The notes beneath the pieces are model-generated. The model worked only from the letters and a program-made list of their open reading frames with translations, ran no database searches and was not told where the DNA came from. Both the position numbers and the translations under genes were made by a program. A stretch of 64,000 nucleotides of DNA from a virus (taxonomy: Duplodnaviria; Caudoviricetes). The stretch is taken from positions 13,567 to 77,566 of the IMG/VR virus record IMGVR_UViG_2974703250_000001; one strand, given 5' to 3'. Below, in pieces: positions 5,463-54,396 of the stretch; position 1 is the first letter of the stretch; each line of letters begins with the position of its first letter.

Positions 5463-8099
5463 ATGACGATGCCGAATGGCTCCGGGGGATTGGACCCCGG
5501 AGCCTGGCTCGCCCATTGGGTTAATCAGGCTGACCTTTCGTCGCTCGCTGGCCGTACCGAGACTGAGGTACGGGCGTACTTCGAGAACCTGGTTCAGGCC
5601 GACTCGGGTTGGGGCGATGCCTCTAACACGTTCTTCAACATGATCCTTGGCGGATTTCAGAACCTAAGCGAGTTCGTCACCCTCATTGTCCATGCGATCA
5701 CCGGTACGCCGGGCGGGCTTACCGACTTGCAGGCGTTCCTAACTGAACGCTGGGGCGATCTAGCAGACGCGTTTGAGTCCGTGGCTAACCTTATCGACGC
5801 TATCGCGGGTGAGGTTGGGTCAAGCCTGGCGGATGCTATCGCCAAGCTGGCTACGTTCCTTACGGAGCTGTCTCCGCTGAATGCCGGGATGCTGTTTGGC
5901 CTGATTGGCACGAACCACCTGCCGCTGTTGTCAGTCTCGCACATTGCGAATATCAACCCTGAGCTGCTTGTTAACGCCGGGTTCGACACGGACGTTTCGG
6001 TGGTCGATAACCCGTATTGGGATTGGGACGGCACGGTGGGCCGGACGGCTCCGCTGGGGTCGGTGAAGGTGGTCGCTGACGGCACGATTAAGGACTTGCT
6101 GTCTGGGCCTGACGCTATCCCGGTTGTTGAGGGCCAGAAGCTCAATGTGTCGGCGTGGTTTAAGTACGCGGGACTAGTCGCGGGCGCGGGTAGTGGTGCT
6201 ATCCGGTTGTCTGGCACTGCATATTCGGCTGACGGCGAGGTTGTGGCTTACCCGGACTTCGGGGGCGTTCCGGACGGGACAACGGGCACAGGCGATTGGG
6301 CGCAGATCACGGGTCAGTACGTGGTGCCAGCGGGTGTGACGCAGTTCAGGCTGCGGCTATCTGTGCGGGACAACGCGACCGCCGGAACGGTTTGGTTTGA
6401 CGACTGTTCGGTTAAGAAGGCTGGCCTGCTTCCGCAGGGGCTCGTGGATGGTCTGACGCAGGCGCTTAATGACCTGCTTACGTGGTTGGAATCGCTAGTA
6501 GACAACGTTCTGGCGGCGCTCGGTCTCGATCCCATCGGGACGATTGTGGACAAGATTCTGGACCTGGCCGACGAGTTCGGAGATTGGCTTGGGTCCACTG
6601 AGGACACGGCAGCGCACCTGACGAACCTTCTGTCCAACCTGCTGACCAATCCGGCTTCGGTGATTGGCCCGCTGGCGCAGTCGATGATTACGGGCCTTAC
6701 GGGCGCGCTAGGGAACCTAAACACTGCTATCAACCAGATCGGTGACGTTCTGGTCGGCACGGTGGTGACTCCGATTAACTCGGCAATCTCTAACGTGATC
6801 GACTGGTTTAACAGTCTGTTGAACTTTCAGGACACCACGGCGGCTAACCAGGTCAACCAGCAGAACTTTCAGATTGCCACCTTGGCAAGTGGCATTAAGA
6901 AGCAGCAGTGGGAGTGTCGTTATAGCACTGCTTTCGTCACGTTCCCTGAGATGTTTTGCGACTGGGGTTTCGCGCTAGGTGGTGTTACCGGCGCACAGTC
7001 GACGGGCACCGCACATACGCACATGCTGAACACTGACGGTCTTGCTGCGCTGCAACTTTCGATTTTGCCTGCGGGCTACGCGGTTGGTGGGTACATCGGC
7101 ATTTCGGACACGACCATCGTGGACACGCTTGCCATGAAGATGTACAAGGAGACCAGCTCGGCAATCAACAATGTTTACCTTGAGGTTTTCCGTGAAGATC
7201 CGACTGGGGCTCTAACGGTGGTTGGTTCCGTTGATGTATCGGGGCAGTTGACCACTACCAGTGACTATGTAGAAGCGGCTTTGCCTGCTGGCGTAATTGT
7301 TAATGCGGGTGAGCGGTATGTGGTTCGCATGCGGAACGCGTCGACTGTCGGTAACCGTGTCGGCATCTCGGTGATGAAGGAACTGGTTGGCGGGCGCGAA
7401 CTTAGCATTCGCACGGAAACCGCTGCCGACTCAAACAAGACCACTTATACGCCTTCGGAGGTTCTGGCCGCGCAGGGATTGTCGGTCATTATGCCGTGGG
7501 CGATGATGGCCGCTAAGAATCTCGCTACTACTGACCAGTCGTTTTCGGATGACTTTAACCGCTCTGCGATGGGTGGTTTGTGGTTCCTTAAGTCGGATAC
7601 CGGGACTAACCAAGTTGGTGTCTCTGGTGGTCGCGCGGCGTTTTCGGGCCTTACGGATGGAAACCAGAATGCGCTTTATATCCGGCCTACGGCGGGGGAT
7701 AAGCAATGGGTTGAAGCCAATCTCTATGAGACTGGTATTGCGGCTAGTGGCGCACGCGAAGGTCTGCTCATGCACGCTAATCGTGACCTTAGTCAGGTTG
7801 TGTACCTAGGCGTCAATCTGAATAGCGCGAAAATTTACACCGGTCCGTGGAACTCGTTGACTGAGCGTGCGTCTGTTAGCACTGCCGGTAATGACGTGCT
7901 GTGGCAGATGTATTTCGATCCTGCGACTGCGGCGTACACGGTGCTTAAGAACGGTCAGGCCAGCGGTCTTACGTGGACGGATAGCGGGTCAGTTGTTGCG
8001 CATGGACCGAACTACCGGTTCGGGGGTCTCCGTATTTCGCGTAGCACGTTCTTTAACGCGGGTCGGGTTGACAACTGGACGTTGAAGGACTGGACATAA
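5463..8099 (+). CDS. Large minor tail protein with carbohydrate-binding-like domains
   Basis: 878 aa; LLVNAGFD...VWFDDCSV galactose-binding-like segment; position in the tail module. Confidence 0.8.
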   Translation: MTMPNGSGGLDPGAWLAHWVNQADLSSLAGRTETEVRAYFENLVQADSGWGDASNTFFNMILGGFQNLSEFVTLIVHAITGTPGGLTDLQAFLTERWGDLADAFESVANLIDAIAGEVGSSLADAIAKLATFLTELSPLNAGMLFGLIGTNHLPLLSVSHIANINPELLVNAGFDTDVSVVDNPYWDWDGTVGRTAPLGSVKVVADGTIKDLLSGPDAIPVVEGQKLNVSAWFKYAGLVAGAGSGAIRLSGTAYSADGEVVAYPDFGGVPDGTTGTGDWAQITGQYVVPAGVTQFRLRLSVRDNATAGTVWFDDCSVKKAGLLPQGLVDGLTQALNDLLTWLESLVDNVLAALGLDPIGTIVDKILDLADEFGDWLGSTEDTAAHLTNLLSNLLTNPASVIGPLAQSMITGLTGALGNLNTAINQIGDVLVGTVVTPINSAISNVIDWFNSLLNFQDTTAANQVNQQNFQIATLASGIKKQQWECRYSTAFVTFPEMFCDWGFALGGVTGAQSTGTAHTHMLNTDGLAALQLSILPAGYAVGGYIGISDTTIVDTLAMKMYKETSSAINNVYLEVFREDPTGALTVVGSVDVSGQLTTTSDYVEAALPAGVIVNAGERYVVRMRNASTVGNRVGISVMKELVGGRELSIRTETAADSNKTTYTPSEVLAAQGLSVIMPWAMMAAKNLATTDQSFSDDFNRSAMGGLWFLKSDTGTNQVGVSGGRAAFSGLTDGNQNALYIRPTAGDKQWVEANLYETGIAASGAREGLLMHANRDLSQVVYLGVNLNSAKIYTGPWNSLTERASVSTAGNDVLWQMYFDPATAAYTVLKNGQASGLTWTDSGSVVAHGPNYRFGGLRISRSTFFNAGRVDNWTLKDWT

Positions 8100-14559: not shown

Positions 14560-14970
14560 CTACGCGGGGACGGGTTTACGGCCTCTAACGACTGCTGCGC
14601 CGATGATGGTCAGCACCCCGACGCCCACAAGCCCGTAGAACACGAACCGGTACGGCGCTAGCTTCTCGATGCACTGCCCGGCCAGGCTCTCGCTGTAGGC
14701 CCCGTACCGCATCCGGTTCTGAATGTCGCGGTTAGCGACTTCATCGCTCACCGGGTGGACATAGTTGCCGCACTGGACGCTGCCGTAGTTGGTCGACACG
14801 GACGGGCTGTACTGGCTCACGTACAGGCCCGCCGCGACGAGGATCACACCGACGATGCCGACGAACCATCTAGGACTCATGCGGCGCATCCTAACTTCCG
14901 CCAAGCCTCCTGGTGGGTCTGAATTAGCCAGCGGTTGATCTTGGCGTAGTCCGGGTGGTCCGGCAGGCAC
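14560..14970 (-). CDS. Membrane protein, two TM helices flanking a Cys-pair loop
   Basis: Hydrophobic segments at both ends; true start probably the ATG near 14880-14890. Confidence 0.6.
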   Translation of the reverse strand: MPAGPPGLRQDQPLANSDPPGGLAEVRMRRMSPRWFVGIVGVILVAAGLYVSQYSPSVSTNYGSVQCGNYVHPVSDEVANRDIQNRMRYGAYSESLAGQCIEKLAPYRFVFYGLVGVGVLTIIGAAVVRGRKPVPA

Positions 14971-15614
14971 GTGGTGGCCTCTGCCGCTTGGATCAACCCG
15001 CGCCAGTCCGCGATGTCCTCTAGAGCCTGTTCCTTGGGCACCTGGCCGTTGCGGACGCTCAGCAGGTAGTCGCGGCGCAGCTCGTGCATGGGCATCTCCA
15101 TGTACCCGGTGGTCAGCATTTCGTGGCCCTGCATGAGCAGCCGGATAGCGTGGAACGCTGCCTTGGTGTCGTAGCCATGCTTGGCGATTAGCTCGGGCCG
15201 GTTGGTCCGGGGAGCCTTCTGGCCGGTGAGCCGGGCTGACATGTTGTCGGCGTAACCGATATGCCGGGCGACCAGCCGCTTAGATAGGAACATGTACCGG
15301 TTAGCTTGCAAACCGATGTGATCCGGCACGGTGAGGTTTGGCGTGTACAGCAACGTCAAAACGGTGGGGTTGCCCTGCGCGGCCAGCTTTGCGTATTTAC
15401 GCAACCCGTAATAAGTGGTCTCGCTGTCGCCCGCCTCAGACTTGACACCTTCGGGCTTGTCCCGGTCGCGCACCGCGCCTGTCTCAGCCGCGAGGCCGAT
15501 TAGCGATTCTGGCGGGTCGAGGTAGATGCCGATGTAGTCGTGGTCTGAGTCTTCGTTGTGCAAGCCGTGGGCAACCGATCCGATTTCACCCACTATCACT
15601 GGATTAATCTCCAT
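14877..15614 (-). CDS. Pol-beta superfamily nucleotidyltransferase (RlaP/PF10127-like)
   Basis: GSVAHGL...SDHDYIG NTase motif, GNPTVLTLL, GYDTKAAFHAIRLL, and LPDHPD..KIN C-terminus typical of this family. Confidence 0.85.
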   Translation of the reverse strand: MEINPVIVGEIGSVAHGLHNEDSDHDYIGIYLDPPESLIGLAAETGAVRDRDKPEGVKSEAGDSETTYYGLRKYAKLAAQGNPTVLTLLYTPNLTVPDHIGLQANRYMFLSKRLVARHIGYADNMSARLTGQKAPRTNRPELIAKHGYDTKAAFHAIRLLMQGHEMLTTGYMEMPMHELRRDYLLSVRNGQVPKEQALEDIADWRGLIQAAEATTCLPDHPDYAKINRWLIQTHQEAWRKLGCAA

Positions 15615-15692: not shown

Positions 15693-16163
15693 TTAGGACG
15701 GACCGGCGGATGAAAACGCCGGTTCGTCTTTTTTGACGGTCGGTGCCTTCTTGGCCGGGGCCTTTTTCGGTTCCGGCTTTGAGGGTGTCTCGTCGATTTC
15801 GTCTCCCACGGGCGAGCCTGCCGCCTTCCAGGCCCGGACAATCTCTGCGGAGACGCGGCCCTTCGTGCTCACGTCGGGGAATCCGTTGCCCTTAGCCCAC
15901 TTACGGATATCCGCGAGAGGCAGGCCCGGTTCGCCACCGGAGGCCGTTGTGCCGCGTGCAGTGCGGCGACGTGCGCTACCCGCTTTGCCGACGCGCTCTG
16001 CAATCTCGATCCACTTGGACATGTCCTTGTCGAACTCGGCAGCGTTTTTGCTTGACAGGTCCATGCGGTAAGCCACGCCATCGACGGAAAATTCCTTCTC
16101 GGTGTCGGCTTCCAGGTCGGGGTCCAGGTCGTCAAAAACGGTGACGGTTACTCGCTTACCCAT
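15693..16163 (-). CDS. lsr2: Lsr2-like nucleoid-associated protein
   Basis: KRVTVTVFDDLD...EFSVDGVAYRMDLS dimerisation domain and IRKWAKGNG..VSTKGRV DNA-binding domain. Confidence 0.9.
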   Translation of the reverse strand: MGKRVTVTVFDDLDPDLEADTEKEFSVDGVAYRMDLSSKNAAEFDKDMSKWIEIAERVGKAGSARRRTARGTTASGGEPGLPLADIRKWAKGNGFPDVSTKGRVSAEIVRAWKAAGSPVGDEIDETPSKPEPKKAPAKKAPTVKKDEPAFSSAGPS

Positions 16164-20353: not shown

Positions 20354-20709
20354 CCGAACTGCTTAAACCGGACGCTGAGGCAGTTAACGAACTTAAGGCC
20401 GCGCTAGAGCGGCTACGAAAGGACGGATGGAACCGTGGAAAGTTTCACGATGTCATCACAGGCGAGTGCTGTGCTCTTGGGGCATTCGGCTACGCATTCC
20501 CCACAGACTCGCCCGGAGTCGCTTACCTCGCGTATGCAATCCGAAACCGCAAGGGTGGGCACCCATACCCACCGGACATGCCGGATATGTCCGTCGTCAT
20601 TCGTTTCAACGATGCACACGGACGTAAGTGGGCCGAAGTGGAAGCCGTCTTTCTCGCTGCAATCCGTTACGCAGAGGGTAAAGGCGTGCATGTCCGATCA
20701 AGCGCTTAG
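20350..20709 (+). CDS. Hypothetical protein
   Basis: GW.RG....GECCALGA...FNDAHGR.WAEV..VF pattern seen in actinophage small proteins. Confidence 0.6.
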   Translation: MTELLKPDAEAVNELKAALERLRKDGWNRGKFHDVITGECCALGAFGYAFPTDSPGVAYLAYAIRNRKGGHPYPPDMPDMSVVIRFNDAHGRKWAEVEAVFLAAIRYAEGKGVHVRSSA

Positions 20710-20880
20710 GGACAACGTTCTGGCGGTGCTGTCCCTGCTGGTCCTCATCGCGTTCATGGCCGTCATCTTGAATGCGTGGTTCACGGGATGGTGACCTTAG
20801 ATGCAGCCGATGTACTCGTTTCTTGTTTAACTTCCGAAACGCCAGCCTCAGCCCTAAGCTGGTTTACAGAGGGGGAGGGG

Positions 20881-21210
20881 ATGAGAAAGTTTCGAGGCGT
20901 GATCAACGAAACGCGAAGGGTAGCGATGACTAACCCGCTTGGCCGGAATGAAGCTCCGGAATACAGGCGGAACGGAAAGCCTTGCTGCATCTTTGGTCAC
21001 GTCTTGGAACGGCTCGGAATCCCAGTCGCCAAATGGGAGCTTGAGCTTCTTCTCAACAACCACACACTTGCAGACTTGCCCTGGGAAGACTGGGGCTTTG
21101 AGAAGCCTAACGAATACCAACTGCTCTGGATCACTAAGGTTCAGGCTAACGCAGATAACCGGGATGCGTGGATCATAGCTATTGCTATGGCTGACGCAAC
21201 CCTGATCTAA
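20881..21210 (+). CDS. Hypothetical protein
   Basis: GGAGGG RBS; P.Y..NGKPCCIFGHVL pattern. Confidence 0.6.
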   Translation: MRKFRGVINETRRVAMTNPLGRNEAPEYRRNGKPCCIFGHVLERLGIPVAKWELELLLNNHTLADLPWEDWGFEKPNEYQLLWITKVQANADNRDAWIIAIAMADATLI

Positions 21211-21394
21211 CGCTTAAAAATCTTATAGCTGTCACTTACGAAGTAACTCCGTAGTCGGAGGGTCCGTGTTTAGCGTCCGGGCCGCAGAGTGGTTCGCCTG
21301 CAAGTAAGCCAGCATTGAATACGTGTGTATTTCCGCACTACGAACTGGTCCCTGATGGGTTTATGTCCTATCGGCAGCCGGAGACGTGCGGGGT

Positions 21395-21505
21395 AGCGAT
21401 ACGCGGTTGGTACCTGAGGGTGACCGCATGAAAACGCTCTGGCGGGGTCCGTGGCCGAATCTACGGGTCAGAGCATCCCCGGTTCGATTCCGGGGTATCG
21501 CACCA
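21395..21505 (+). ncRNA. tRNA-like structured RNA (acceptor stem, T-arm and CCA, with non-tRNA interior)
   Basis: GCGATAC/GTATCGC 7-bp stem, A discriminator, CCA; CCCGG-TTCGATT-CCGGG T-arm; two long internal hairpins. Confidence 0.6.
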
Positions 21506-21652
21506 AGCCGGAGCGGTTGAGACGCACAGCGCTAACGGGCATTAGCGCTTATAGGTGCGCGACGTAAGGGTGTGGCGTCCGCTGCCACCTGTTGCGCTCC
21601 CGCTCCGGCCTTTCACTTTCCACCTTCACCACAACCACGAAAGGGCAGTCAG

Positions 21653-22069
21653 ATGACGGTTATTTACTTGGGTGAACCAACCGGCCCACGACTCCGCGAC
21701 CTCAGCCGGTCGCAGGAGAAAGCCCTTAACGACTGGCTCACGATGGCACTGGTTGTGCCACCGACGAGGCGCGAAGAAATCCCCGTCGACTTTACGCGAG
21801 CGCTTAGTGCCCTGGCTAAGCGTAGGGGTATCCGGTTCCACTTCAACAGTGACCGGATGCGGGTACGCGGCGAAGCTGTGCTCGGTAAGAACATGCCCGG
21901 CTGCGTTGGCGGCACCAAACGAAAGGTCACGGTTACCGATGAAAGGCAAGTGGCTACGAAAGCTCAATCCTCTATCCGGGTCAAAGCCCGGTCCGGAGGT
22001 TTCGTCTCCGGCGGTGGAGAAGGTATCGCCCCTTACCACGACCGGGACTGGCGCGACGACTACCTATAG
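21653..22069 (+). CDS. Hypothetical protein
   Basis: GAAAGGG RBS preceded by the CACCACAACCAC leader motif. Confidence 0.6.
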   Translation: MTVIYLGEPTGPRLRDLSRSQEKALNDWLTMALVVPPTRREEIPVDFTRALSALAKRRGIRFHFNSDRMRVRGEAVLGKNMPGCVGGTKRKVTVTDERQVATKAQSSIRVKARSGGFVSGGGEGIAPYHDRDWRDDYL

Positions 22070-25854: not shown

Positions 25855-27273
25855 ATGGCTACCTTTTTGCAGAGCTTGCAGTCCCAGTTCAACACCACTC
25901 GCACGGAGAACGGCGATAAGGCGCACAAGTCGTCGCTTGATCCGGTGGTGGATTACTTCGGCCTAGCGGGCGCTATGCGTGACCGCGCCGAGGCGTCGGC
26001 TGACCTGTTCGAGAAGGCGTTCCGATTCGACCCACAGGCGGCGGTCCGGACCCTGTTCTATCTGCGTGACGTGCGCGGGGGCCAGGGCGAGCGTGACGTG
26101 TTCCGTGCGGGCCTCAAGCGGCTTCTGGCGAAGTGGCCGGGCGCTGACTACTCGGTGCTCAAGCATGTGCCGTTCTACGGGCGCTGGGACGACCTGTTCT
26201 ACGACGGCGCGAACGTCACGCCCGCCGTGGCCCGGATTCTCCACTATCAGTGGGCCTCCGACGTTGCGGCGTACGAGCGTGGCGATCAGGTGTCGCTCAT
26301 GGCTAAGTGGCTGCCGTCCGACAAGGCCGCTAACAAGGAGCTGGCTATCGCGGTGCGTCAGGCGCTCGGTCTGACTCAGCGTGAGTACCGGCAGACCCTT
26401 ACGGCTCTTAGGGGCCGGATTGGTCTCGTCGAGCACGATATGTCGGAGCGCACTTACGAGCACATCGACTACTCGCGGCTCCCGGCTCAGGCGCACCGTA
26501 AGCACGTTAAGGCGTTCCGGCGCAACGACGGTGAGCGGTACCAGGCGTTCCTTGACGCGGTGCAGCGTGGCGAGGCGAAGGTGAACACGTCGACCCTGTA
26601 TCCGTACGAACTGTTCGACCTGTGCCGGTCGGACCCTTCGGCGGCTGACGCGTTGTGGAAGAACCTGCCGGACTACACGCAGCCGGGCCAGGATGCGCTA
26701 GTCCTGCCGGACGTTTCCGGTTCGATGGCGGGGCGTCCTATCTCGGTGTCGGTGTCGCTGGCGCTGTACTTCGCTGAGCGCAACACGGGTCCGTACAAGG
26801 GCTATTTCCTGTCGTTCGACACCACGCCCAAGCTGGTTCAGGTGCCGGAGTCGGGAGACTTGCAGAGCAAGTTACGGGCGATCAGTAGCCATACCAACAA
26901 CTGGGGTTCGACCAACTTGCGGGCCGCGTTTACCGCGATCCTCAGGGCGGGGTTGCAGTCGGGCACCGTCCCGGCCACGCTCTACGTCGTGTCGGACATG
27001 CAGTTCGATCAGGCGCTTAACAACGCCGATCTGAGCGTGTTCGAGTCGGCCAAGCTCTCGTTCCAGCAGGCGGGCCTTGAGCTGCCGCACGTCGTGTTCT
27101 GGAACGTGAACGCGCGGCATGATCAGTTGCCCGCGACGGCTATGGACGGAAACGTGACTCTCGTTTCCGGGCTGGCTGCTACGACGTTTGCGCTGGCTGT
27201 GCAGGGTAAGTCCCCGCGTGAGCTGGTGGACGACGTAATCAATTCGGAGCGATACGAGAAAATCGTTCTGTAA
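25855..27273 (+). CDS. TROVE-like plus vWA protein (Ro60-like, DUF2828-type)
   Basis: TENG...SS.DP.VD.F start; LFYLRDVRGGQGER; GRWDDL; AKWLPS; MIDAS motif DVSGSM; GSTNL..AF; VVSDMQFD; VFWNVNA. Confidence 0.85.
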   Translation: MATFLQSLQSQFNTTRTENGDKAHKSSLDPVVDYFGLAGAMRDRAEASADLFEKAFRFDPQAAVRTLFYLRDVRGGQGERDVFRAGLKRLLAKWPGADYSVLKHVPFYGRWDDLFYDGANVTPAVARILHYQWASDVAAYERGDQVSLMAKWLPSDKAANKELAIAVRQALGLTQREYRQTLTALRGRIGLVEHDMSERTYEHIDYSRLPAQAHRKHVKAFRRNDGERYQAFLDAVQRGEAKVNTSTLYPYELFDLCRSDPSAADALWKNLPDYTQPGQDALVLPDVSGSMAGRPISVSVSLALYFAERNTGPYKGYFLSFDTTPKLVQVPESGDLQSKLRAISSHTNNWGSTNLRAAFTAILRAGLQSGTVPATLYVVSDMQFDQALNNADLSVFESAKLSFQQAGLELPHVVFWNVNARHDQLPATAMDGNVTLVSGLAATTFALAVQGKSPRELVDDVINSERYEKIVL

Positions 27274-27316
27274 AACTTCCATCTTGCCGGGATGGCTCGG
27301 TAAGGTTGGAAACAGG

Positions 27317-27371
27317 TGGACGCGAACAGCAATCAAAACTTCTTCTGCTAAAAGAAACCAAGTGCGTCCAG
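27317..27371 (+). ncRNA. Y-RNA-like unit 1 (short)
   Basis: TGGACGC/GCGTCCA closing stem with ACAGCAAT motif. Confidence 0.6.
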
Positions 27372-27382
27372 TTTAAAACCTG

Positions 27383-27513
27383 TGGACCCCCACAGCAATA
27401 AAACTACTTCCATGATAAGGACGAGGCGCGGGTTCAAATCCCGCAGCTCTTACGGTTTTCACCGTAAGGGTTTAGCTCAGGGGCAGAGCGCGTAAGTAAA
27501 AACAGGGGTCCAG
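27383..27513 (+). ncRNA. YrlA-like Y RNA with circularly permuted tRNA mimic
   Basis: TGGACCCC/GGGGTCCA stem enclosing a T-arm (GCGGG-TTCAAAT-CCCGC), a loop-closed acceptor-like stem (CTCTTACGG/CCGTAAGGG) and a D-arm (TAGCTCAGGGGCAGAGCG). Confidence 0.85.
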
Positions 27514-27526
27514 TACATAGCGGCTG

Positions 27527-27581
27527 TGGACACTAACAGCGATTCTAACTCTTTCAAATGGTGAAAATAGAATGTGTCCAG
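27527..27581 (+). ncRNA. Y-RNA-like unit 3 (short)
   Basis: TGGACAC/GTGTCCA stem with ACAGCGAT motif and inner ATTCTA/TAGAAT stem. Confidence 0.6.
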
Positions 27582-27596
27582 TTCCACCGCGTTTGA

Positions 27597-27636
27597 TCCG
27601 CCCCGCGCCTAAATGACTGCGGGGCGGATTTTTTTA
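27597..27636 (+). terminator. Intrinsic terminator after the Y-RNA array
   Basis: TCCGCCCCGC...GCGGGGCGGA followed by a T7 run. Confidence 0.85.
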
Positions 27637-27775
27637 TGCCTAACGGAGGAAACATGCCAGGACCGATGTCCGCACCTAACGGAAACAAGCTGATCACGGT
27701 GAGCGCAGAGGCCCGTAAGAAAGCCGGTCGGACCGGCAAGACGGAGCTGGTGCGCGAGCGGAAAGGTAACAAGCA

Positions 27776-40606: not shown

Positions 40607-41173
40607 ATGGGACTAGAGCCACGCTGCCGGTCGGGGAAGAAGTGCGTTTCCCGTACACCTGACGGTCCGGCGATAGTAGCGCTACGCCCGCTCTGCGACG
40701 GCTGCGTTAAGGACATTCAAAAGTGCCTTGACGACCTGCCGACATACGCGGCCCTGCTTGAGCAGTACAAGGGCTACGTGCCCGGCTCGGTGGGGCAGTC
40801 AAAGGTCAGCTCATCGGCTGAACCTAAGTCACCGCTAAACCTGACGGTCATTGACCTTATCGGCCAGATCGGCGCGGTAATCCATCGCACGCAGGGCTAC
40901 CAGGTACGTGACCTGATCACGCTAAGCGGCGGCTTGGAAGTAGCGCTAGATATCCGGTCGGTCTATTCAAAGTCAGACGGGATTATCGGCCTGCAAAGGG
41001 TGTGGGAGCGGCGGCGCGTCCCATGCCCGGAATGCAACTTGCCCACTCTCGGGGGATGGGTAGGCGAAGGCACCATTTACTGCACTAACAGTGAGTGCCG
41101 GAATGCGCTTAGCAAGGCGCAGTACGAAGAATATTGCGAAATGAAATCAAGGGAGAAGGTTAAGCGTGCCTAA
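40607..41173 (+). CDS. Cys-rich (zinc-binding) hypothetical protein
   Basis: CRSGKKC, CDGC, CPEC and C...C motifs. Confidence 0.65.
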   Translation: MGLEPRCRSGKKCVSRTPDGPAIVALRPLCDGCVKDIQKCLDDLPTYAALLEQYKGYVPGSVGQSKVSSSAEPKSPLNLTVIDLIGQIGAVIHRTQGYQVRDLITLSGGLEVALDIRSVYSKSDGIIGLQRVWERRRVPCPECNLPTLGGWVGEGTIYCTNSECRNALSKAQYEEYCEMKSREKVKRA

Positions 41174-50237: not shown

Positions 50238-50310
50238 GCCACCTTAGCTCAGTTGGTAGAGCAGCCCCTTCGTAACGGGCAGGTCAGCGGTTCGACTCCG
50301 CTAGGTGGCT
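50238..50310 (+). tRNA. tRNA-Thr(CGT)
   Basis: Cloverleaf; anticodon loop TT-CGT-AA. Confidence 0.88.
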
Positions 50311-50311
50311 C

Positions 50312-50542
50312 GTGAGTGATAGATACCAGGCGACGGTTGGTCGCATAGTGCATTACCAGTCGTACGGCACGCCTAACGGCGAGTATTTACCCGAACCGCG
50401 CGCAGCCATTGTGACGACGGTGGGGCACGATGGAAATGTGGGGTTGGCAGTCCTTAACCCTACGGGCATGTTCTTTAACGAGTATGTGCCTTATGCGGAT
50501 AAGCCGACGCCGGGGCATTGGAATTGGCCTCCGCGCGTATAA
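50312..50542 (+). CDS. Conserved hypothetical protein
   Basis: TVGRIVHY...PRAAIVT.V...GLAVLNPTGMFF...GHWNWPPRV, a widespread phage pattern. Confidence 0.7.
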   Translation: MSDRYQATVGRIVHYQSYGTPNGEYLPEPRAAIVTTVGHDGNVGLAVLNPTGMFFNEYVPYADKPTPGHWNWPPRV

Positions 50543-50759
50543 CTGAATAGGGAGTAGATATGACTGATTTTGAGGGTAGAGACCCAATCAAGGTGGCTAA
50601 GGACGCGCTTGGCGTCGTGCAGGAACTTCGGGACCGCGCAGAGTGGCCTAAGGGTGAGATTCCCGAGCAGGCTAAGAAGCCTGCCAAGGTTGGGAACGCG
50701 TAAGTTTCAACAGTCATTGCCAAGGCTATGCGTAAGCATCCTCAAACCGGCAATGCAAT

Positions 50760-50833
50760 CTGGCTGTAGCTCAACTTGGTAGAGCGCTGGCTTTGGGTGC
50801 CAGGGGTTCGGGGTTCAAATCCTCGCAGTCAGA
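50760..50833 (+). tRNA. tRNA-Pro(TGG)
   Basis: Cloverleaf; CTGGC-TTTGGGT-GCCAG. Confidence 0.9.
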
Positions 50834-51182
50834 CCTAGGGAATCATCGGACCCGTACAATCCGGTGTTGTGGTGACAGAGTGTGCAGTTCGTAGCCGGGC
50901 TGCAATGTGGCGTGAAGCCCCTAAGCGGGGGCGGATGGAATCGGTTAGCTACCGTAGCGTGCTGGACTGAGCTTGATGGGGTACACATAGCCTACGGCTA
51001 CCCCTGTTTTGCTTGGACTCGGAGGCTGGAATACCTCCCCACTATCCCGTTTTTCTTTAGGGGAGCACCCTTGCCTTGTGGGCTTGTGGCCCCTTCGGTT
51101 GGTCCACCGACTGGACGGCCCGCGCTCGACGCGCGTTATAAGAAGCGGCCAGGGCGGGAGCCGTACCCAATCCCGCCGTCTA

Positions 51183-51259
51183 AGCTCGGTAGCTCAGTCT
51201 GGTAGAGCGGCGGTCTCCAAAGCCGCATGTCGCAGGTTCAAATCCTGTCCGGGTTGCCA
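51183..51259 (+). tRNA. tRNA-Trp(CCA)
   Basis: GCGGT-CTCCAAA-GCCGC; encoded CCA. Confidence 0.9.
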
Positions 51260-51282
51260 TTGGCGTACAAGCCGTGTACTAT
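51254..51282 (+). promoter_or_regulatory. Promoter for the main tRNA block with GTAC-N7-GTAC operator
   Basis: TTGCCA-17 bp-TACTAT; ATG 7 nt downstream (leaderless). Confidence 0.7.
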
Positions 51283-51622
51283 GTGTGACATGAAAGCTGA
51301 ACTGTTGAACGCAGCAGGTATCTTGGCGCGACGGCTGGGTGATCAGTTCTCCCGGTTGCACCTGTGGCTGTATGGGTTGTCGGGCACGTTGGATGGCATG
51401 GCTGACAGCGCCGGGTACTGGGATCGCCACGATGCCTAAGACGCCCGACTTTCGTCACTTGGTGGTCGAGGACACGGCTGGGTTTCTGCGTCGTCGCTTC
51501 GGCATGTCTGAGGTCGACGCGAAAGCTGAGGCTGAGCGCCAGGTGGACGCTCTGGCTGAGCGGTCCGAGCAGGGCTACTCAGACTCTTTGGGGCTGTGGT
51601 GACATAAAGGCCGATTTTTTCA

Positions 51623-51696
51623 GGGACCGTAGCCCAATTGGCAGAGGCAATAGGCTTAGACCCTATCCAGTGTGCGTTCGAGTCGCACCGGTTCTA
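51623..51696 (+). tRNA. tRNA-Leu(TAG), short variable loop
   Basis: ATAGG-CTTAGAC-CCTAT; variable region about 5 nt. Confidence 0.8.
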
Positions 51697-51768
51697 CGCT
51701 AAGTAGCTTAATGGTAAAGCGCCCGGTTGTGGTCCGGGTGATTCCGGTTCGACTCCGGGCTTAAGCCA
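51697..51768 (+). tRNA. tRNA-His(GTG)
   Basis: CCCGG-TTGTGGT-CCGGG; irregular acceptor stem. Confidence 0.78.
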
Positions 51769-51769
51769 C

Positions 51770-51842
51770 GCGCGGGTAGCTCAGTGGTTAGAGCACTGCT
51801 CTGATAAGGCAGGGGTCCGTGGTTCAAATCCACGTTCGCGCA
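51770..51842 (+). tRNA. tRNA-Ile(GAT)
   Basis: CTGCT-CTGATAA-GGCAG. Confidence 0.88.
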
Positions 51843-51906
51843 CTTATCACACCTATGTTAGTTTTGTCAAACAACCAAAACGGCGAAATTGGCGGTTTGG
51901 TTGTAT

Positions 51907-51978
51907 TGCCTGGTCTTCTAATTGGCAGGATGCCGGAATCTGACTCCGGTGGTTGAGGTTCGAGTCCTTGCCGGGCAG
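51907..51978 (+). tRNA. tRNA-Gln(CTG)
   Basis: CCGGA-ATCTGAC-TCCGG. Confidence 0.85.
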
Positions 51979-51979
51979 C

Positions 51980-52053
51980 GTGCTAGTAACCCATGTTGGC
52001 TGGGTGCCTGCCTTCCAAGCAGGATTTCGCGGGTTCGATTCCTGTCTAGCACA
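51980..52053 (+). tRNA. tRNA-Gly(TCC)
   Basis: CCTGC-CTTCCAA-GCAGG. Confidence 0.85.
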
Positions 52054-52102
52054 CACTGCCCCCTTCTAAGCCTCTCAGCGATGCTCAAATAGGAGGGGCC
52101 TT

Positions 52103-52175
52103 GCCTCGTTAGCTCAGTTGGTAGAGCTGCCGACTCTTAATCGGTAGGTCACAGGTTCAAGTCCTGTACGGGGTA
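52103..52175 (+). tRNA. tRNA-Lys(CTT)
   Basis: GCCGA-CTCTTAA-TCGGT. Confidence 0.92.
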
Positions 52176-52207
52176 CTTACACACACGTATTCAATGCTGG
52201 CTTACTG

Positions 52208-52289
52208 GGAGAGTACCGCTCATGGGAGCAAGCCGCCTTGAAAGCGGTAGGCAGGCGAAAGCCTGGGAGTTCGATTCTTCTACTCTCCG
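52208..52289 (+). tRNA. tRNA-Ser(TGA)
   Basis: GCCGC-CTTGAAA-GCGGT; long variable arm CAGGC-GAAA-GCCTG. Confidence 0.85.
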
Positions 52290-52295
52290 CGTTTA

Positions 52296-52367
52296 GGGGT
52301 TATAGCTTAGTTGGTAAAGCACCGGTCTTGCACACCGGCGTCCGGGGTTCGATTCCCCGTTTCTCCA
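52296..52367 (+). tRNA. tRNA-Ala(TGC)
   Basis: CCGGT-CTTGCAC-ACCGG; G3:U70 present; two U-U mismatches in the acceptor stem. Confidence 0.82.
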
Positions 52368-52381
52368 CTTAAGGGGGTTCG

Positions 52382-53071
52382 GTGTCGGAGGTTAAGAGCC
52401 TTTATGGCACGCGAACGTCGAAATACTGGGAGGCCGCTCCGGCGAAGATGGACGCGCTGAATCTGCGCATGATCTTCCCGTCGAGCAACCGTTACGGGTT
52501 CCCTGATCTAGAGCTGTGTGATTGGCTGCCGGATTGCTTGGGTGCGTGGCATCTGCCGCGTCAGCGGGACCGGGCAGCGGCCAACAACGGCGCTGTGCAT
52601 TTCTTTTTGGATGACTACCGCTTTGAGACCGCGTTTACGAGCCCTGAGAGGACCGTGGGTCGAGTTTTGGCGGTGGGTGGGGCACTGACGCCTGATTTCA
52701 GTCTGTGGCGCGATATGCCGCGTGCTGGGCAGCTCTGGAATGTGTACCGGTCGCGCTGGTGTGGTGCGTACTGGCAGAGCCAGGGCGTGAGGGTCATTCC
52801 TACGGCCTGCTGGGCTCGCTCAGACACTTTTGACTTCTGTTTCGATGGACTACCGCAGGGCGGGCCGGTGGCGGTCTCAGCGCTTGGTGTGCGGGCGAAC
52901 GGTGAGGATCGCGGCGTGTTCCGCGACGGCCTGGCCGAGCTGGTCGCGCGTGTCCGGCCTTCGTGCATCTTGAGCTACGGACGCCTGGTGCATGTCGACG
53001 AGCTTGATCTGCCGCCGGTTCGTGAGTATCCGACCTTTTGGGATGAGCGTCGTAAGGCGGTTAAGGCTTAG
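52382..53071 (+). CDS. DUF4417-family protein
   Basis: HFFLDDYRFE, TPDFSLWRDMP, QLWNVYRSRW.G.YWQ..G..VIPT..W, CFDG.P. Confidence 0.82.
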   Translation: MSEVKSLYGTRTSKYWEAAPAKMDALNLRMIFPSSNRYGFPDLELCDWLPDCLGAWHLPRQRDRAAANNGAVHFFLDDYRFETAFTSPERTVGRVLAVGGALTPDFSLWRDMPRAGQLWNVYRSRWCGAYWQSQGVRVIPTACWARSDTFDFCFDGLPQGGPVAVSALGVRANGEDRGVFRDGLAELVARVRPSCILSYGRLVHVDELDLPPVREYPTFWDERRKAVKA

Positions 53072-53080
53072 GGGGTTCTG

Positions 53081-53431
53081 GTGGGCGGTCGCGGTGGTGG
53101 TGGCGGTGGCCCGGCTAGTTCCCGGTCGTCAACGGTGACGTTGTATCACCGGACGAGTGCGAGTGCTGCGCGGTCGATTGTGGATCGTGGGTTCAATCCG
53201 GAGTTTCGGCCTGGCACTAACAAGTCTTATCGTGATGAGAACTCGCAGTATGGGTTCTTTACTAAGACGGTTAAGGGTCAGGAGGGATACGGCCAGAATG
53301 TTGTGGCTGTGGAAGTCCCTAAGTCTGCTGTGCAGCGTGATCCGTGGTCGGGTCATGTTCGTGTGAAGGTGGAAGACCTTAGAAACGCAAACTTCCGGCA
53401 CTATGAGGGTAAGCGCCGGAAGAAGCGGTAG
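53081..53431 (+). CDS. MGGRG-leader protein with ADP-ribosyltransferase-like core
   Basis: LYHRT...SIVDRGF...YGFFT...YG..VVAVEVP resembles the H-Y-type ART fold. Confidence 0.55.
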   Translation: MGGRGGGGGGPASSRSSTVTLYHRTSASAARSIVDRGFNPEFRPGTNKSYRDENSQYGFFTKTVKGQEGYGQNVVAVEVPKSAVQRDPWSGHVRVKVEDLRNANFRHYEGKRRKKR

Positions 53432-53432
53432 T

Positions 53433-53507
53433 GCCGTCATGGCTGAGTGGTTAGGCGTCGGACTGCAAATCCGGCTTATCCCGGTTCGATTCCGGGTGGC
53501 GGCTCCA
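53433..53507 (+). tRNA. tRNA-Cys(GCA)
   Basis: TCGGA-CTGCAAA-TCCGG; U discriminator plus CCA. Confidence 0.9.
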
Positions 53508-54054
53508 TTCGCAGGTATGCCCTACGGGTAGCTCTACGTAGGTGCGTAGGCACTTGAGGCATAGCGTAAGGCCCCACACGGCTACTCTCCGTGAAGGCGC
53601 TTGTATTCGGCGATTTCAGCGTCCGTGGCTTCGCGGATGCCGACAACTTTCCACTTGCGCCTGATCAGACCCTTATCCATGAGCCAGCCTTTGATCTTGG
53701 CGTAGACGGCGATAGGCCACAGGAAACGGCCTAGGCCAGCCCAGCCGGGTTCGATATCGTCGGGGTCGTTCTTGCTCATTCTTCCTCCATCCAAACGTTA
53801 GCGTCGGGCAGGATGCCCAACAGGTTGTTTACGAGACGGTCGGCTTTCTCGTGGTCTATGTCGCTGAGCACGATCCGGTCGTCGTCTATGACGTCTTTCA
53901 TCCAGACTGTCCACATGGCCTATGCCTTCCGTGGCTCTTGTGGGGCGCGCTTGCAGCCGGGTTTGCATGGTTGCCCAAGTTTTGCGCCACAGCCGCCGTA
54001 TGCGCGAGGGCAAAGCTCGGTTAGCGCGAGTTGTTTCATGGTTGGCATGTTTAT

Positions 54055-54127
54055 TCCTCCGTAGCTCAATTGGCAGAGCGCGCGACTGTTAATCGCGTGG
54101 TTGGTGGTTCGAGTCCACCCGTTGGAG
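54055..54127 (+). tRNA. tRNA-Asn(GTT)
   Basis: CGCGA-CTGTTAA-TCGCG; two acceptor mismatches. Confidence 0.85.
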
Positions 54128-54323
54128 CTTATTGGCGCTTAATCGTCACACTGGCTATGTGGCCGTGTTTCTCGATTTCGTGCTGTACCGCTTCGGCTGC
54201 TAGTTCACGTATGAACGTCTTAGCGGTGAGCGGTCCGACTAACTTAAAGTCCTCTATCAACTTGTCTAGGTCCATTGTGCAGACGAGTGTGATGAGGAAT
54301 TGACCTTTAGGGCGTTGCATGGG

Positions 54324-54396
54324 TGCCCCCACTAGGGATCGAACCTAGGACCCGATGATTAAAAGTCACCTGCTCTGCCAACTGAGCTATAGGGGC
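54324..54396 (-). tRNA. tRNA-Lys(TTT), the only leftward tRNA
   Basis: Reverse complement GCCCCTATAGCTCAGTTGGCAGAGCAGGTGACTTTTAATCATCGGGTCCTAGGTTCGATCCCTAGTGGGGGCA. Confidence 0.92.

What the first reader, a model, noticed from the sequence alone, without database searches (positions are those of the whole stretch)
21211..21652. Unexplained 440-nt intergenic region containing a tRNA-like RNA with a non-tRNA body
Seen: a perfect 7-bp acceptor stem GCGATAC/GTATCGC with A-CCA (about 21395-21505) and a canonical T-arm. The usual D and anticodon arms are replaced by about 75 nt forming two long hairpins: GCGGTT...GACCGC, and GCTCTGGC/GTCAGAGC enclosing CCGTGG-CCGAAT-CTACGG. No 7-nt anticodon loop is evident. 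About 180 nt of upstream non-coding sequence and an AGCGCTAA/TTAGCGCT hairpin at 21528-21549 flank it. It lies in the early operon, 29 kb from the tRNA cluster. Inference: a tRNA-mimic RNA (minihelix substrate for RNase P, CCA enzyme or synthetases), a decoy, or a processing signal that releases a larger ncRNA.
Basis: seen in the sequence. Interest (0 to 1): 0.8.

Follow-up and report, generated by a model that had tools for sequence, protein, structure and literature searches.

The report
tRNA-shaped phage RNA lacking anticodon
Cluster L mycobacteriophages carry, between two early genes, a conserved ~380-base structured RNA whose core folds like the top half of a tRNA but has an interchangeable body where the anticodon arm should be. 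It matches no RNA family in Rfam, I found no description of it, and its function is untested.

Summary
Window 21396-21505 folds into a 7-bp acceptor stem, a D-like arm, a long central arm, a canonical T arm, then A-CCA. ARAGORN and Rfam (E up to 10) find nothing there.

- **Conservation:** homologous intergenic regions occur in 91 Cluster L mycobacteriophage records and one Mycolicibacterium sphagni prophage.
- **Covariation:** across 18 distinct sequences, 96% of pair cells form standard pairs, against 33-47% for slid controls. Ten pairs show compensatory changes.
- **Central arm:** it is not homologous between subclusters. In Douge and MkaliMitinis3 it is a nested, degenerate tRNA.
- **Flanks:** these are structured too. 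Domain I (21228-21313) and domain III (21507-21609) both show covariation. The unit is a ~382-nt chain of closed domains.

Best reading (confidence 0.4): a non-decoding mimic of the tRNA top half. Host tRNA-processing enzymes would cut it out of the early lytic transcript, and it would then act through its acceptor end and elbow.

Rivals are a purely cis processing or insulator site, one large uncleaved RNA, and a decaying tRNA-Leu. First readers of this scan noted the same element in other Cluster L genomes; those notes are unchecked. I class it as a new variant of a known kind.

The parts
21228..21313 (+). Domain I: four-way junction. P1 pairs 21228-21233 and 21236-21239 with 21304-21313. 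Hairpin 1 is 21247-21260, hairpin 2 is 21261-21283, and hairpin 3 is 21284-21301 with the invariant loop AGUGGUUCGC.
   Evidence: Alignment A2. 94.9% of pair cells are paired against 26-40% for slid controls, and 6 pairs change on both sides. The single-sequence MFE recovers the same fold.
21318..21331 (+). Short hairpin AAUAC-GUGU-GUAUU, present only in the L4-type sequences.
   Evidence: MFE fold. It is absent or different in other subclusters.
21333..21391 (+). Domain Ib. The closing helix is CCGCAC (21333-21338) with GUGCGG (21386-21391). The inner helix is CUGG/CCGG, and the variable hairpin lies at 21352-21374.
   Evidence: MFE fold. By inspection, the closing helix is replaced by other complementary pairs in CELFI (CACACAC/GUGUGUG) and Archie (UUCACCG/CGGUGAA).
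21396..21402 (+). Acceptor stem, 5' strand GCGAUAC.
   Evidence: Pairs 1-3 and 5 are invariant; pairs 4, 6 and 7 covary.
21403..21427 (+). Arm 1 (D-like). It has a 6-bp outer stem GCGGUU/GACCGC, an invariant GG bulge, and an inner ACC/GGU stem with a UGAG loop.
   Evidence: helices 2 and 3 covary. It shares the frame GCGG-UUGG(Y)A-GAC-CGC with host and prophage tRNA-Leu D arms, plus a 9-nt insertion.
21428..21435 (+). Unpaired linker AUGAAAAC.
21436..21474 (+). Arm 2, the interchangeable body. It has an 8-bp outer stem, a GGGGU bulge, a 6-bp inner stem and a 6-nt loop CCGAAU.
   Evidence: It is not homologous between subclusters. In Douge and MkaliMitinis3 it is a nested degenerate tRNA.
21478..21494 (+). 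T arm CCCGG-UUCGAUU-CCGGG.
   Evidence: 100% paired, and 3 of 5 pairs covary.
21495..21505 (+). Acceptor 3' strand GUAUCGC, discriminator A21502, and encoded CCA at 21503-21505.
   Evidence: CCA is encoded in L4 and L3 only.
21507..21609 (+). Domain III. The long closing stem is D1 (21507-21516 with 21600-21609) plus D2 (21519-21526 with 21593-21599). Hairpin D3 is 21528-21549 with loop CGGGCA. Hairpin D4 is about 21557-21582 with the conserved loop UAAGGGUGUGG.
   Evidence: Alignment A3. 89.6% paired against 38-49% for slid controls, and 5 pairs change on both sides. MFE fold.
21610..21655 (+). Pyrimidine/CA-rich spacer containing the conserved UUCNCUU, then the ribosome-binding site GAAAGGG (21639-21645) and the ATG (21653) of the downstream gene (21653-22069, phrog_5916).

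Best explanation
The element is a non-decoding tRNA mimic made from the early lytic transcript of a subcluster L4 mycobacteriophage.

**Shown**
- It keeps a 7-bp acceptor stem stacked on a 5-bp T stem, a tRNA-type T loop, and a D-like arm with an invariant GG.
- Everything below the elbow is an arbitrary stable hairpin, or in some phages a nested tRNA-like cloverleaf.
- It sits in a chain of closed RNA domains (21228-21609) that are 1-5 nt apart.

**Inferred**
- The conserved half is the half that RNase P, the 3' tRNA-processing and CCA-adding enzymes and other acceptor/elbow readers recognise. Host enzymes would therefore cut at 21395/21396 and after A21502 or the CCA.
- This would release a stable RNA of about 107-110 nt. 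It would also leave domains I/Ib at the 3' end of the upstream RNA and domain III at the 5' end of the downstream mRNA.
- The released RNA cannot decode. I take it to be the functional product: a handle or decoy for a protein that reads the acceptor end and elbow.
- Candidate readers are the phage's own RNA-repair set (RlaP nucleotidyltransferase, Ro-like protein, RNA ligase/kinase) or a host factor such as LeuRS, SmpB or an acceptor-end toxin.
For: - **Structure under selection.** Covariation supports the acceptor, arm 1 and T arm. Only that half is conserved, while arm 2 is replaced by at least six unrelated bodies of 30-75 nt.
- **Sequence constraint beyond pairing.** Acceptor pairs 1-3 and 5 never vary, although T-stem pairs do. 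The GG bulge and the CUGAGG loop of arm 1 are conserved in every subcluster except L3. This argues for a sequence-specific reader beyond what RNase P would need.
- **The body is not always junk.** The nested tRNA in Douge and MkaliMitinis3 keeps its own T stem through two double changes. Rfam tRNA scores it 36.2 and 26.2 bits.
- **Likely tRNA ancestry.** Arm 1 shares a frame with class II tRNA-Leu D arms.
- **Domain layout.** Neighbouring domains are closed and abut the tRNA-like domain (z -3.8).
- **Genomic setting.** The phage invests in tRNA/RNA biology: 14 tRNAs, a Ro-like gene with a YrlA-like module and an RlaP nucleotidyltransferase. LeBron has an RNA ligase and a polynucleotide kinase (PMC13148394).
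- **Precedent.** Mycobacteriophage DS6A has an RNA that is little more than the tmRNA tRNA-like domain. The authors suggest it may titrate SmpB (PMC4131195).
Against: - There are no expression, end-mapping or cleavage data.
- No promoter-like or terminator-like site was found at 20700-22000, so the RNA would have to be processed from read-through transcription.
- The encoded CCA is not conserved.
- Arm 1 lacks the U8/N9 linker and a standard D stem-loop, so recognition by tRNA enzymes is not guaranteed.
- The variability of arm 2 fits equally well with a purely cis processing signal.
- The acceptor has G3-C70, so it carries no alanine/tmRNA identity.
- No partner protein has been identified.
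- All homologues come from one phage cluster, so part of the apparent conservation reflects shared ancestry.
Confidence: 0.4

Rival explanations
1. It is a purely cis-acting punctuation or insulator site. The tRNA shape exists only to recruit RNase P and 3' processing enzymes. This separates the immediate-early message (cro, excise, small genes) from the downstream block. Domain III plus the U/C-rich tract then acts as a protective leader or weak terminator for genes that are toxic to the host. The released tRNA-like piece would be a by-product.
For: - Only the half of the tRNA that RNase P needs is conserved, and the body is free to vary.
- Closed domains abut both ends.
- Domain III ends in a strong 10+7-bp stem followed by the conserved UUCNCUU, then the ribosome-binding site.
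- In LeBron, the gene two positions downstream (gp46, phosphoesterase) could not be cloned. Genes 47, 49, 50, 53 and 54 are also toxic (PMC13148394).
Against: - Acceptor pairs 1-3 and 5, the arm-1 GG and the CUGAGG loop are constrained in sequence beyond what a cleavage signal should need.
- The nested tRNA is maintained by compensatory changes.
- The terminator scan found nothing.
- A stem enclosing 83 nt is an atypical terminator.
Confidence: 0.25
2. The whole 21228-21609 stretch acts as one uncleaved, ornate non-coding RNA. It would be comparable in spirit to the large phage-associated RNAs GOLLD and ROOL, with the tRNA-like fold as one structural domain.
For: - All domains are conserved together in every Cluster L genome examined, and each shows covariation.
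- Invariant single-stranded loops (AGUGGUUCGC, CGGGCA, UAAGGGUGUGG) suggest tertiary or protein contacts.
- The full-length fold gives z -3.8.
Against: - No Rfam family, GOLLD and ROOL included, matches at E<=10.
- L1 phages lack hairpin D3.
- The linker domains vary greatly in length.
- A free-standing acceptor stem with A73-CCA is hard to explain if the ends are never exposed.
Confidence: 0.15
3. It is a real or decaying class II tRNA gene (tRNA-Leu), as annotated in Rose5 and Silverleaf, or an intron-containing tRNA.
For: - ARAGORN calls tRNA-Leu(caa) in Rose5.
- Arm 1 resembles a tRNA-Leu D arm.
- The discriminator is A73.
Against: - The Rose5 call uses a different, mismatched acceptor. 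It disappears in LeBron, which differs by one base within the element.
- There is no ARAGORN or Rfam tRNA hit in the window or in 11 of the 12 fetched homologue loci; only Rose5 is called.
- No conserved anticodon loop exists.
- The forced relaxed call (tRNA-Gln with a 20-nt intron) has a mismatched acceptor.
- Compensatory changes show continuing selection on the structure, unlike a pseudogene.
Confidence: 0.05
4. It is an RNase P-processed antisense regulator, like the C4 RNA of phages P1/P7 or the CI RNA of P4. In those, a tRNA-like scaffold displays loops that pair with target sites in the same operon. The variable arm 2 would set the specificity.
For: - It lies next to the immunity region of a temperate phage.
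- A conserved scaffold with a variable displayed arm is what this model expects.
- The P1/P7 and P4 precedents are from my own knowledge and were not checked here.
Against: - Duplex scans of the arm-2 region against -4 to +6 kb in nine phages gave nothing better than shuffled arms.
- The conserved loops have no complementary site in the 64-kb window.
- They show no enrichment in a mycobacterial genome either.
Confidence: 0.05
5. It is a small protein-coding gene, as annotated for LeBron gp44. The window's equivalent is the ORF at 21386-21520, 44 aa.
For: An ORF exists in the window, and LeBron has an annotated CDS there.
Against: - Element lengths of 96-142 nt differ by amounts that are not multiples of three.
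- The near-identical window and Chaser sequences differ by a 1-nt indel.
- The central part is non-homologous between phages.
- The substitutions are paired, as expected for RNA helices.
Confidence: 0.01

Closest known systems
YrlA / bacterial Y RNAs (Rfam RF02553; Chen et al. 2014, PMC4201824)
   Same: A non-coding RNA with a tRNA-like T arm and D-like arm and no decoding function. It is found in mycobacteriophages that encode a Ro60-like protein.
   Different: - YrlA is circularly rearranged. Its 5' and 3' ends form the Ro-binding stem and the acceptor stem is closed by a loop. Here the ends form an open acceptor stem with A-CCA.
- There is no Rfam match.
- This element lies 4.3 kb from the Ro-like gene, and a separate YrlA-like module sits directly after that gene.
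tmRNA-like RNA of mycobacteriophage DS6A consisting of the tRNA-like domain only (Hudson et al. 2014, PMC4131195)
   Same: A mycobacteriophage RNA that keeps little more than an acceptor/T-arm tRNA-like head. It is proposed to work by titrating a tRNA-head-binding protein (SmpB).
   Different: - This element has G3-C70, not G3-U70.
- It has a hairpin arm 1 rather than the open D-loop analogue.
- It has a large central arm.
- ARAGORN and Rfam do not call it tmRNA.
- There was no sequence match to DS6A in BLAST.
mascRNA at the 3' end of MALAT1, and other tRNA-like processing signals (own knowledge)
   Same: A tRNA-like cloverleaf embedded in a longer transcript. In those cases RNase P cleavage defines the ends of the neighbouring RNA and releases a small CCA-ended RNA.
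   Different: Those are eukaryotic nuclear RNAs. Processing is unproven here, and this element has conserved structured domains on both sides.
C4 RNA of phages P1/P7 and CI RNA of P4 (own knowledge)
   Same: Small RNAs of temperate phages encoded within an operon near the immunity region. They have a tRNA-like end structure that RNase P processes.
   Different: Those act through antisense loops with targets in the same transcript. No such complementarity was found here.
Class II tRNA-Leu
   Same: It shares the 7/5 acceptor/T architecture, A73, a long arm next to the T arm, and an arm-1 frame of GCGG-UUGG(Y)A-GAC-CGC like tRNA-Leu D arms.
   Different: - There is no anticodon arm.
- A 9-nt hairpin is inserted in the D loop.
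- There is no 8/9 linker.
- It is not scored as tRNA.
- No tRNA with this acceptor stem turned up in 101 mycobacterial genomes.
Species 1 and 2 stable RNAs of the phage T4 tRNA cluster (own knowledge)
   Same: Phage-encoded stable RNAs of unknown function that are processed together with tRNAs.
   Different: Those lie inside the tRNA cluster. This element lies 29 kb from it, in the early operon.

Membership tests
tRNA (RF00005) | 7-bp acceptor stem stacked on a 5-bp T stem with a 7-nt T loop | tested here: met
   The acceptor is 99% paired, the T stem is 100% paired, and the loop is UUCGAUU.
tRNA (RF00005) | Anticodon arm with a 5-bp stem and a 7-nt loop (U33, purine 37) | tested here: not met
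   The window's loop is 6 nt (CCGAAU). No loop is conserved across subclusters.
tRNA (RF00005) | Standard D arm after a 2-nt linker | tested here: not met
   Arm 1 abuts the acceptor stem. It has a 6-bp stem plus an inner hairpin.
tRNA (RF00005) | Detected by a tRNA model or program | tested here: not met
   ARAGORN finds none. Rfam gives no tRNA hit at E<=10. The only call comes from relaxed, intron-allowing ARAGORN and has a mismatched acceptor.
tmRNA tRNA-like domain | G3-U70 alanine identity pair | tested here: not met
   G3-C70 is invariant in all 18 sequences.
tmRNA tRNA-like domain | Recognised by tmRNA models | tested here: not met
   ARAGORN tmRNA search and Rfam are both negative.
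YrlA (RF02553) | Ends form a Ro-binding stem and the acceptor-like stem is closed by a loop | tested here: not met
   The topology is the opposite: an open acceptor stem with A-CCA.
YrlA (RF02553) | Covariance-model match and a position adjacent to the Ro60 gene | tested here: not met
   There is no match at 21150-21700. A weak YrlA match (20.1 bits) lies at 27427-27489, beside the Ro-like gene.
YrlA (RF02553) | Bound by the Ro60 orthologue | not testable with these tools
   This needs immunoprecipitation.
GOLLD / ROOL / T-box and other Rfam families | Covariance-model match | tested here: not met
   The only hit at E<=10 is a spurious snoRNA match on the minus strand.
RNase P-processed antisense RNAs (P1 C4, P4 CI type) | Loops complementary to target sites in the same phage | tested here: not met
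   nothing above the shuffled controls.
RNase P substrates | Cleavage at the 5' end of the acceptor stem | not testable with these tools
   The 12-bp acceptor/T stack, T loop and A73(-CCA) are present, but no cleavage assay or read data were available.

The most novel reading that the evidence does not exclude
The element may be a modular tRNA scaffold. A conserved acceptor/elbow top half would present interchangeable cargo arms, up to whole nested tRNA-like cloverleaves. It would belong to the RNA-repair and counter-defence kit of Cluster L phages (Ro-like protein with Y RNAs, RlaP nucleotidyltransferase, RNA ligase, kinase, tRNAs). One possible role is as a decoy or substrate that absorbs host enzymes attacking the tRNA acceptor end, such as nucleotidyltransferase toxins of the MenT/AbiE type known in mycobacteria (own knowledge). 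Another is as a cofactor that brings the phage repair enzymes to tRNAs.
Probability: 0.15. Interest if true: 0.85.

Novelty: new variant of a known kind. Interest (0 to 1): 0.62.

Why it matters
tRNA mimics are recurring tools in conflicts between viruses and hosts, but few bacterial-virus examples have defined architecture. This one has four useful properties.
- It is strongly supported by covariation.
- It is absent from Rfam.
- It is mis-annotated in public records, as tRNA-Leu in Rose5 and Silverleaf, as a CDS in LeBron, and as nothing in most others.
- It sits in a phage cluster that is easy to handle genetically in M. smegmatis.

Natural variants already provide an allelic series: six or more different bodies on one scaffold, including a tRNA nested within a tRNA. 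The element lies just upstream of a block of genes that are very toxic to the host, in phages that also carry Ro/Y-RNA and RNA-repair genes. It could therefore make the role of tRNA mimicry in phage RNA biology directly testable.

Tried and rejected
- **Rfam.** Gathering thresholds on the whole window and E<=10 on 21150-21700 found no family. Homologues gave only the nested tRNA in Douge and MkaliMitinis3.
- **ARAGORN, relaxed and allowing introns.** It produced only a forced tRNA-Gln with a mismatched acceptor.
- **Promoter and terminator scan of 20700-22000.** Nothing was found. The TTGACC I first took for a -35 box in L2/L3 is the 5' strand of the covarying P1 helix.
- **Wider distribution.** There were no extra copies in the phage's own genome. 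Only 1 of 151 Mycobacteriaceae genomes had a match. A metagenome pattern scan found none, and BLAST found only Cluster L phages.
- **Host tRNA with the same acceptor stem.** The pattern matches in 101 genomes were chance palindromes in other sequence.
- **Antisense-target model.** Rejected. The second AAGGGTGTG at 40996 lies inside an ORF.
- **Alternative pairing of the upstream GCCGGAG with the 3' strand of D1.** It does not covary: L2 changes the 3' strand but not the upstream copy, and L1 lacks the upstream copy.
- **Kissing interaction between the arm-1 loop and the D3 loop CGGGCA.** It is inconsistent across subclusters, and L1 lacks D3.
- **Literature searches.** No description of this element was found.

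Full report
**Where this is.** The window is part of a 77,566-bp virus record. Its nearest relatives are Mycobacterium phages Chaser and Bromden, at 93.5% and 91.5% identity over 21150-21700. Guerrero-Bustamante and Hatfull list Chaser as subcluster L4 (PMC10865867). In Chaser, the homologous intergenic gap lies between gp42 and gp43 in the rightward early operon. That operon follows the immunity repressor, cro and excise. [quoted passage not shown]

**The observation.**
- The acceptor stem is GCGATAC (21396-21402) paired with GTATCGC (21495-21501), followed by A21502 and CCA 21503-21505.
- The T arm is CCCGG-TTCGATT-CCGGG (21478-21494).
- Arm 1 is 21403-21427 and arm 2 is 21436-21474, with a 6-nt loop.
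- The hairpin at 21528-21549 is present.
- The tRNA cluster lies at 50238-54396.

ARAGORN reports no tRNA or tmRNA in the gap. Rfam finds nothing at gathering thresholds or at E<=10. Folded alone, the 111 nt give the same four-way junction (-50.3 kcal/mol, z -2.3).

**Conservation and covariation of the tRNA-like core.** BLAST finds the region in 91 phage records, all Cluster L phages of M. smegmatis. A motif scan adds IMG/VR copies and one prophage in Mycolicibacterium sphagni ATCC 33027. I collected 18 distinct versions of the core and aligned them as A1.
- For the acceptor, both helices of arm 1 and the T stem, 96.0% of pair cells are standard pairs. Sliding the partners by 1-3 columns gives 33-47%.
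- Ten of 21 pairs change on both sides, and no shuffle out of 500 reaches the observed values.
- T stem pairs vary, for example between CG, UA and AU, or CG, AU and GC.
- Acceptor pair 6 switches between AU and GC, and pair 4 between AU and CG.
- The arm-1 stems change completely in the M. sphagni copy (GGGCUG/CGGCCC).
- By contrast, acceptor pairs 1-3 and 5 never vary, and the GG bulge of arm 1 is invariant. The CUGAGG loop is shared by L1, L2, L4 and the prophage.
- Many G-U pairs would be A-C mismatches on the other strand, so the RNA is read from the + strand.

**The body is interchangeable.** Between arm 1 and the T arm the sequences are not homologous between subclusters.
- The window shares its hairpin with Chaser, Bromden, Bazzle, Tourach and CELFI.
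- Faith1-type, Archie, L1, L3 and the prophage each have a different stable arm.
- Total element length ranges from 96 to 142 nt.
- In L1 the arm ends in a 7-nt loop, UUCAAGC. That loop explains ARAGORN's tRNA-Leu(caa) call in Rose5. The call uses a mismatched alternative acceptor and vanishes in LeBron, which differs by one base within the element. LeBron instead carries a CDS annotation, gp44, over the element.
- In Douge and MkaliMitinis3 the body is a nested, degenerate tRNA. Rfam tRNA scores it 36.2 bits (above the cut-off of 29) and 26.2 bits. Its own T stem differs between the two phages by two double changes (GCCAG/CUGGC versus ACCGG/CCGGU), so this nested cloverleaf is also maintained.

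**The flanks are structured RNA as well.**
- *Domain I (21228-21313).* A closing helix encloses three hairpins. On alignment A2, 94.9% of cells are paired against 26-40% for slid controls, and six pairs change on both sides. The sequence that looks like a -35 box in L2/L3 (GTTGAC) is in fact the 5' strand of this helix. It pairs with GUCAGC or GUCAAC.
- *Domain Ib (21333-21391).* It is closed by CCGCAC/GUGCGG. CELFI and Archie replace this with other complementary pairs.
- *Domain III (21507-21609).* A long stem encloses a hairpin with the invariant loop CGGGCA and a hairpin with the conserved loop UAAGGGUGUGG. 89.6% of cells are paired against 38-49% for slid controls, and five pairs change on both sides.
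- *Whole unit.* A single-sequence fold of 21228-21609 recovers this chain of closed domains. The energy is -175.2 kcal/mol, z is -3.8, and 0 of 100 shuffles fold as well.
- *Downstream of domain III.* A conserved U/C-rich tract follows, then the ribosome-binding site and the ATG at 21653 of a gene of unknown function.

**Distribution.** A covariance model of the core (R1) gave the following results.
- One copy in the phage's own genome at 112.5 bits. The next hits, at 22 bits or less, are true tRNAs.
- The M. sphagni prophage at 69.3 bits.
- Nothing in 150 other Mycobacteriaceae genomes sampled.
- A metagenome motif scan found nothing.

In the data searched, the element is confined to Cluster L phages and one related prophage.

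**Origin.** I found no host tRNA with this acceptor stem in 101 mycobacterial genomes. The pattern matches were chance palindromes. Arm 1 shares the frame GCGG-UUGG(Y)A-GAC-CGC with the D arms of mycobacterial and prophage tRNA-Leu genes (GGCGGAAUUGGCAGACGCGC), with a 9-nt hairpin inserted. Taken with A73 and a long arm next to the T arm, this suggests descent from a class II tRNA. That is an inference, not a demonstration.

**How it most likely works.** Only the structure and its selection are shown; the rest is inference. The conserved part is the tRNA top half: a 12-bp acceptor/T stack, a T loop with a GG partner, and a discriminator. From established tRNA biology, that is the part recognised by RNase P, the 3' processing and CCA-adding enzymes, and other elbow or acceptor readers. 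The part needed for decoding is absent.

I therefore consider it most likely (0.4) that host enzymes excise the element from read-through early transcription. No promoter-like site was found nearby. The released CCA-ended RNA would then act as a non-decoding mimic for an acceptor/elbow-reading protein. Sequence invariance in the acceptor stem and arm 1, and the maintained nested tRNA, favour a functional product over a mere cleavage signal.

Context fits an RNA-biology role. The phage has 14 tRNAs, a Ro-like gene with a weak YrlA-like module directly after it and an RlaP-family RNA-repair nucleotidyltransferase. Its relative LeBron has an RNA ligase and a polynucleotide kinase (PMC13148394). 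A precedent for a tRNA-head-only RNA in a mycobacteriophage is DS6A, for which SmpB titration was suggested (PMC4131195). This element lacks G3-U70, however.

**Rivals.**
- *Purely cis punctuation or insulator role (0.25).* This is hard to separate from the best reading without experiments. It gains from the position just upstream of genes that are highly toxic in LeBron.
- *One uncleaved ~380-nt RNA (0.15).* It fits the co-conserved domains and the invariant loops.
- *Real or decaying tRNA (0.05).* Argued against by the detector results and by continuing compensatory evolution.
- *Antisense regulator (0.05).* No complementary targets were found.
- *Protein-coding (0.01).* Ruled out by frame-breaking length differences.

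**Comparison with known families.** The element fails the defining tests for tRNA (no anticodon arm, no model hit). It fails those for the tmRNA tRNA-like domain (G3-C70, no model hit). It also fails those for YrlA (opposite topology, no model hit, not adjacent to the Ro-like gene). It matches no Rfam family. It resembles in principle the tRNA-like processing signals and RNase P-processed phage RNAs that I know from the literature, but I could not test that. Searches of the paper library found no description of it.

First readers of this scan flagged the same region in other Cluster L genomes. Those notes are unchecked, but they agree with the alignments made here.

**Verdict.** Its function is unproven. 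I class it as a new variant of the known kind 'tRNA-mimic non-coding RNA', with interest 0.62.

Noticed in passing
window 27427-27489 (gap 27274-27650 after the Ro-like gene 25855-27273): A YrlA-like module lies directly downstream of the Ro-like gene. It has a T arm GCGGGUUCAAAUCCCGC, a closed hairpin and a D arm UAGCUCAGGGGCAGAGC. Rfam YrlA scores it 20.1 bits, well below the gathering score of 69. The Ro-like protein matches DUF2828 and DUF7788.
   Followed up: partly
window 52062-52098: An Rfam abiF RNA match (41.1 bits, gathering score 37) lies inside the tRNA cluster, between tRNA-Gly and tRNA-Lys(ctt).
   Followed up: no
window 14877-15614 (-) and 15693-16163 (-): An RlaP-family nucleotidyltransferase (RNA repair pathway DNA polymerase beta family, E 1.8e-26) lies beside an Lsr2-like gene. 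Both are leftward genes near the integrase.
   Followed up: partly
window 51623-51697: The tRNA-Leu(tag) is only 75 nt, so it lacks the long variable arm expected of a bacterial tRNA-Leu. It directly abuts tRNA-His, which starts at 51698.
   Followed up: no
L002 (Rose5) 442-525; L003 (LeBron) 449-586: Public annotations over this element look wrong. The tRNA-Leu(caa) in Rose5 and Silverleaf rests on a mismatched alternative acceptor stem. LeBron gp44 is a CDS drawn across the tRNA-like RNA.
   Followed up: yes
L010 (Douge) 451-523; L012 (MkaliMitinis3) 452-516: A degenerate tRNA is nested inside the tRNA-like scaffold. It has a canonical D arm, a T loop UGCAAAU, a non-standard anticodon loop (aligned with an extra base in Douge) and a defective acceptor stem. 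Its T stem covaries between the two phages.
   Followed up: partly
L026 (Mycolicibacterium sphagni NZ_NOZR01000003.1) 5630-6116; G001:C33 227-230 kb: This genome carries a Cluster-L-like prophage. It holds the most divergent copy of the element and a tRNA cluster about 29 kb downstream, the same spacing as in the window.
   Followed up: partly
L004 (Faith1) about 245-275: In L2 phages the motif GAAGTAAC occurs twice, about 25 nt apart, just upstream of and at the start of domain I. It could be a protein-binding repeat.
   Followed up: no
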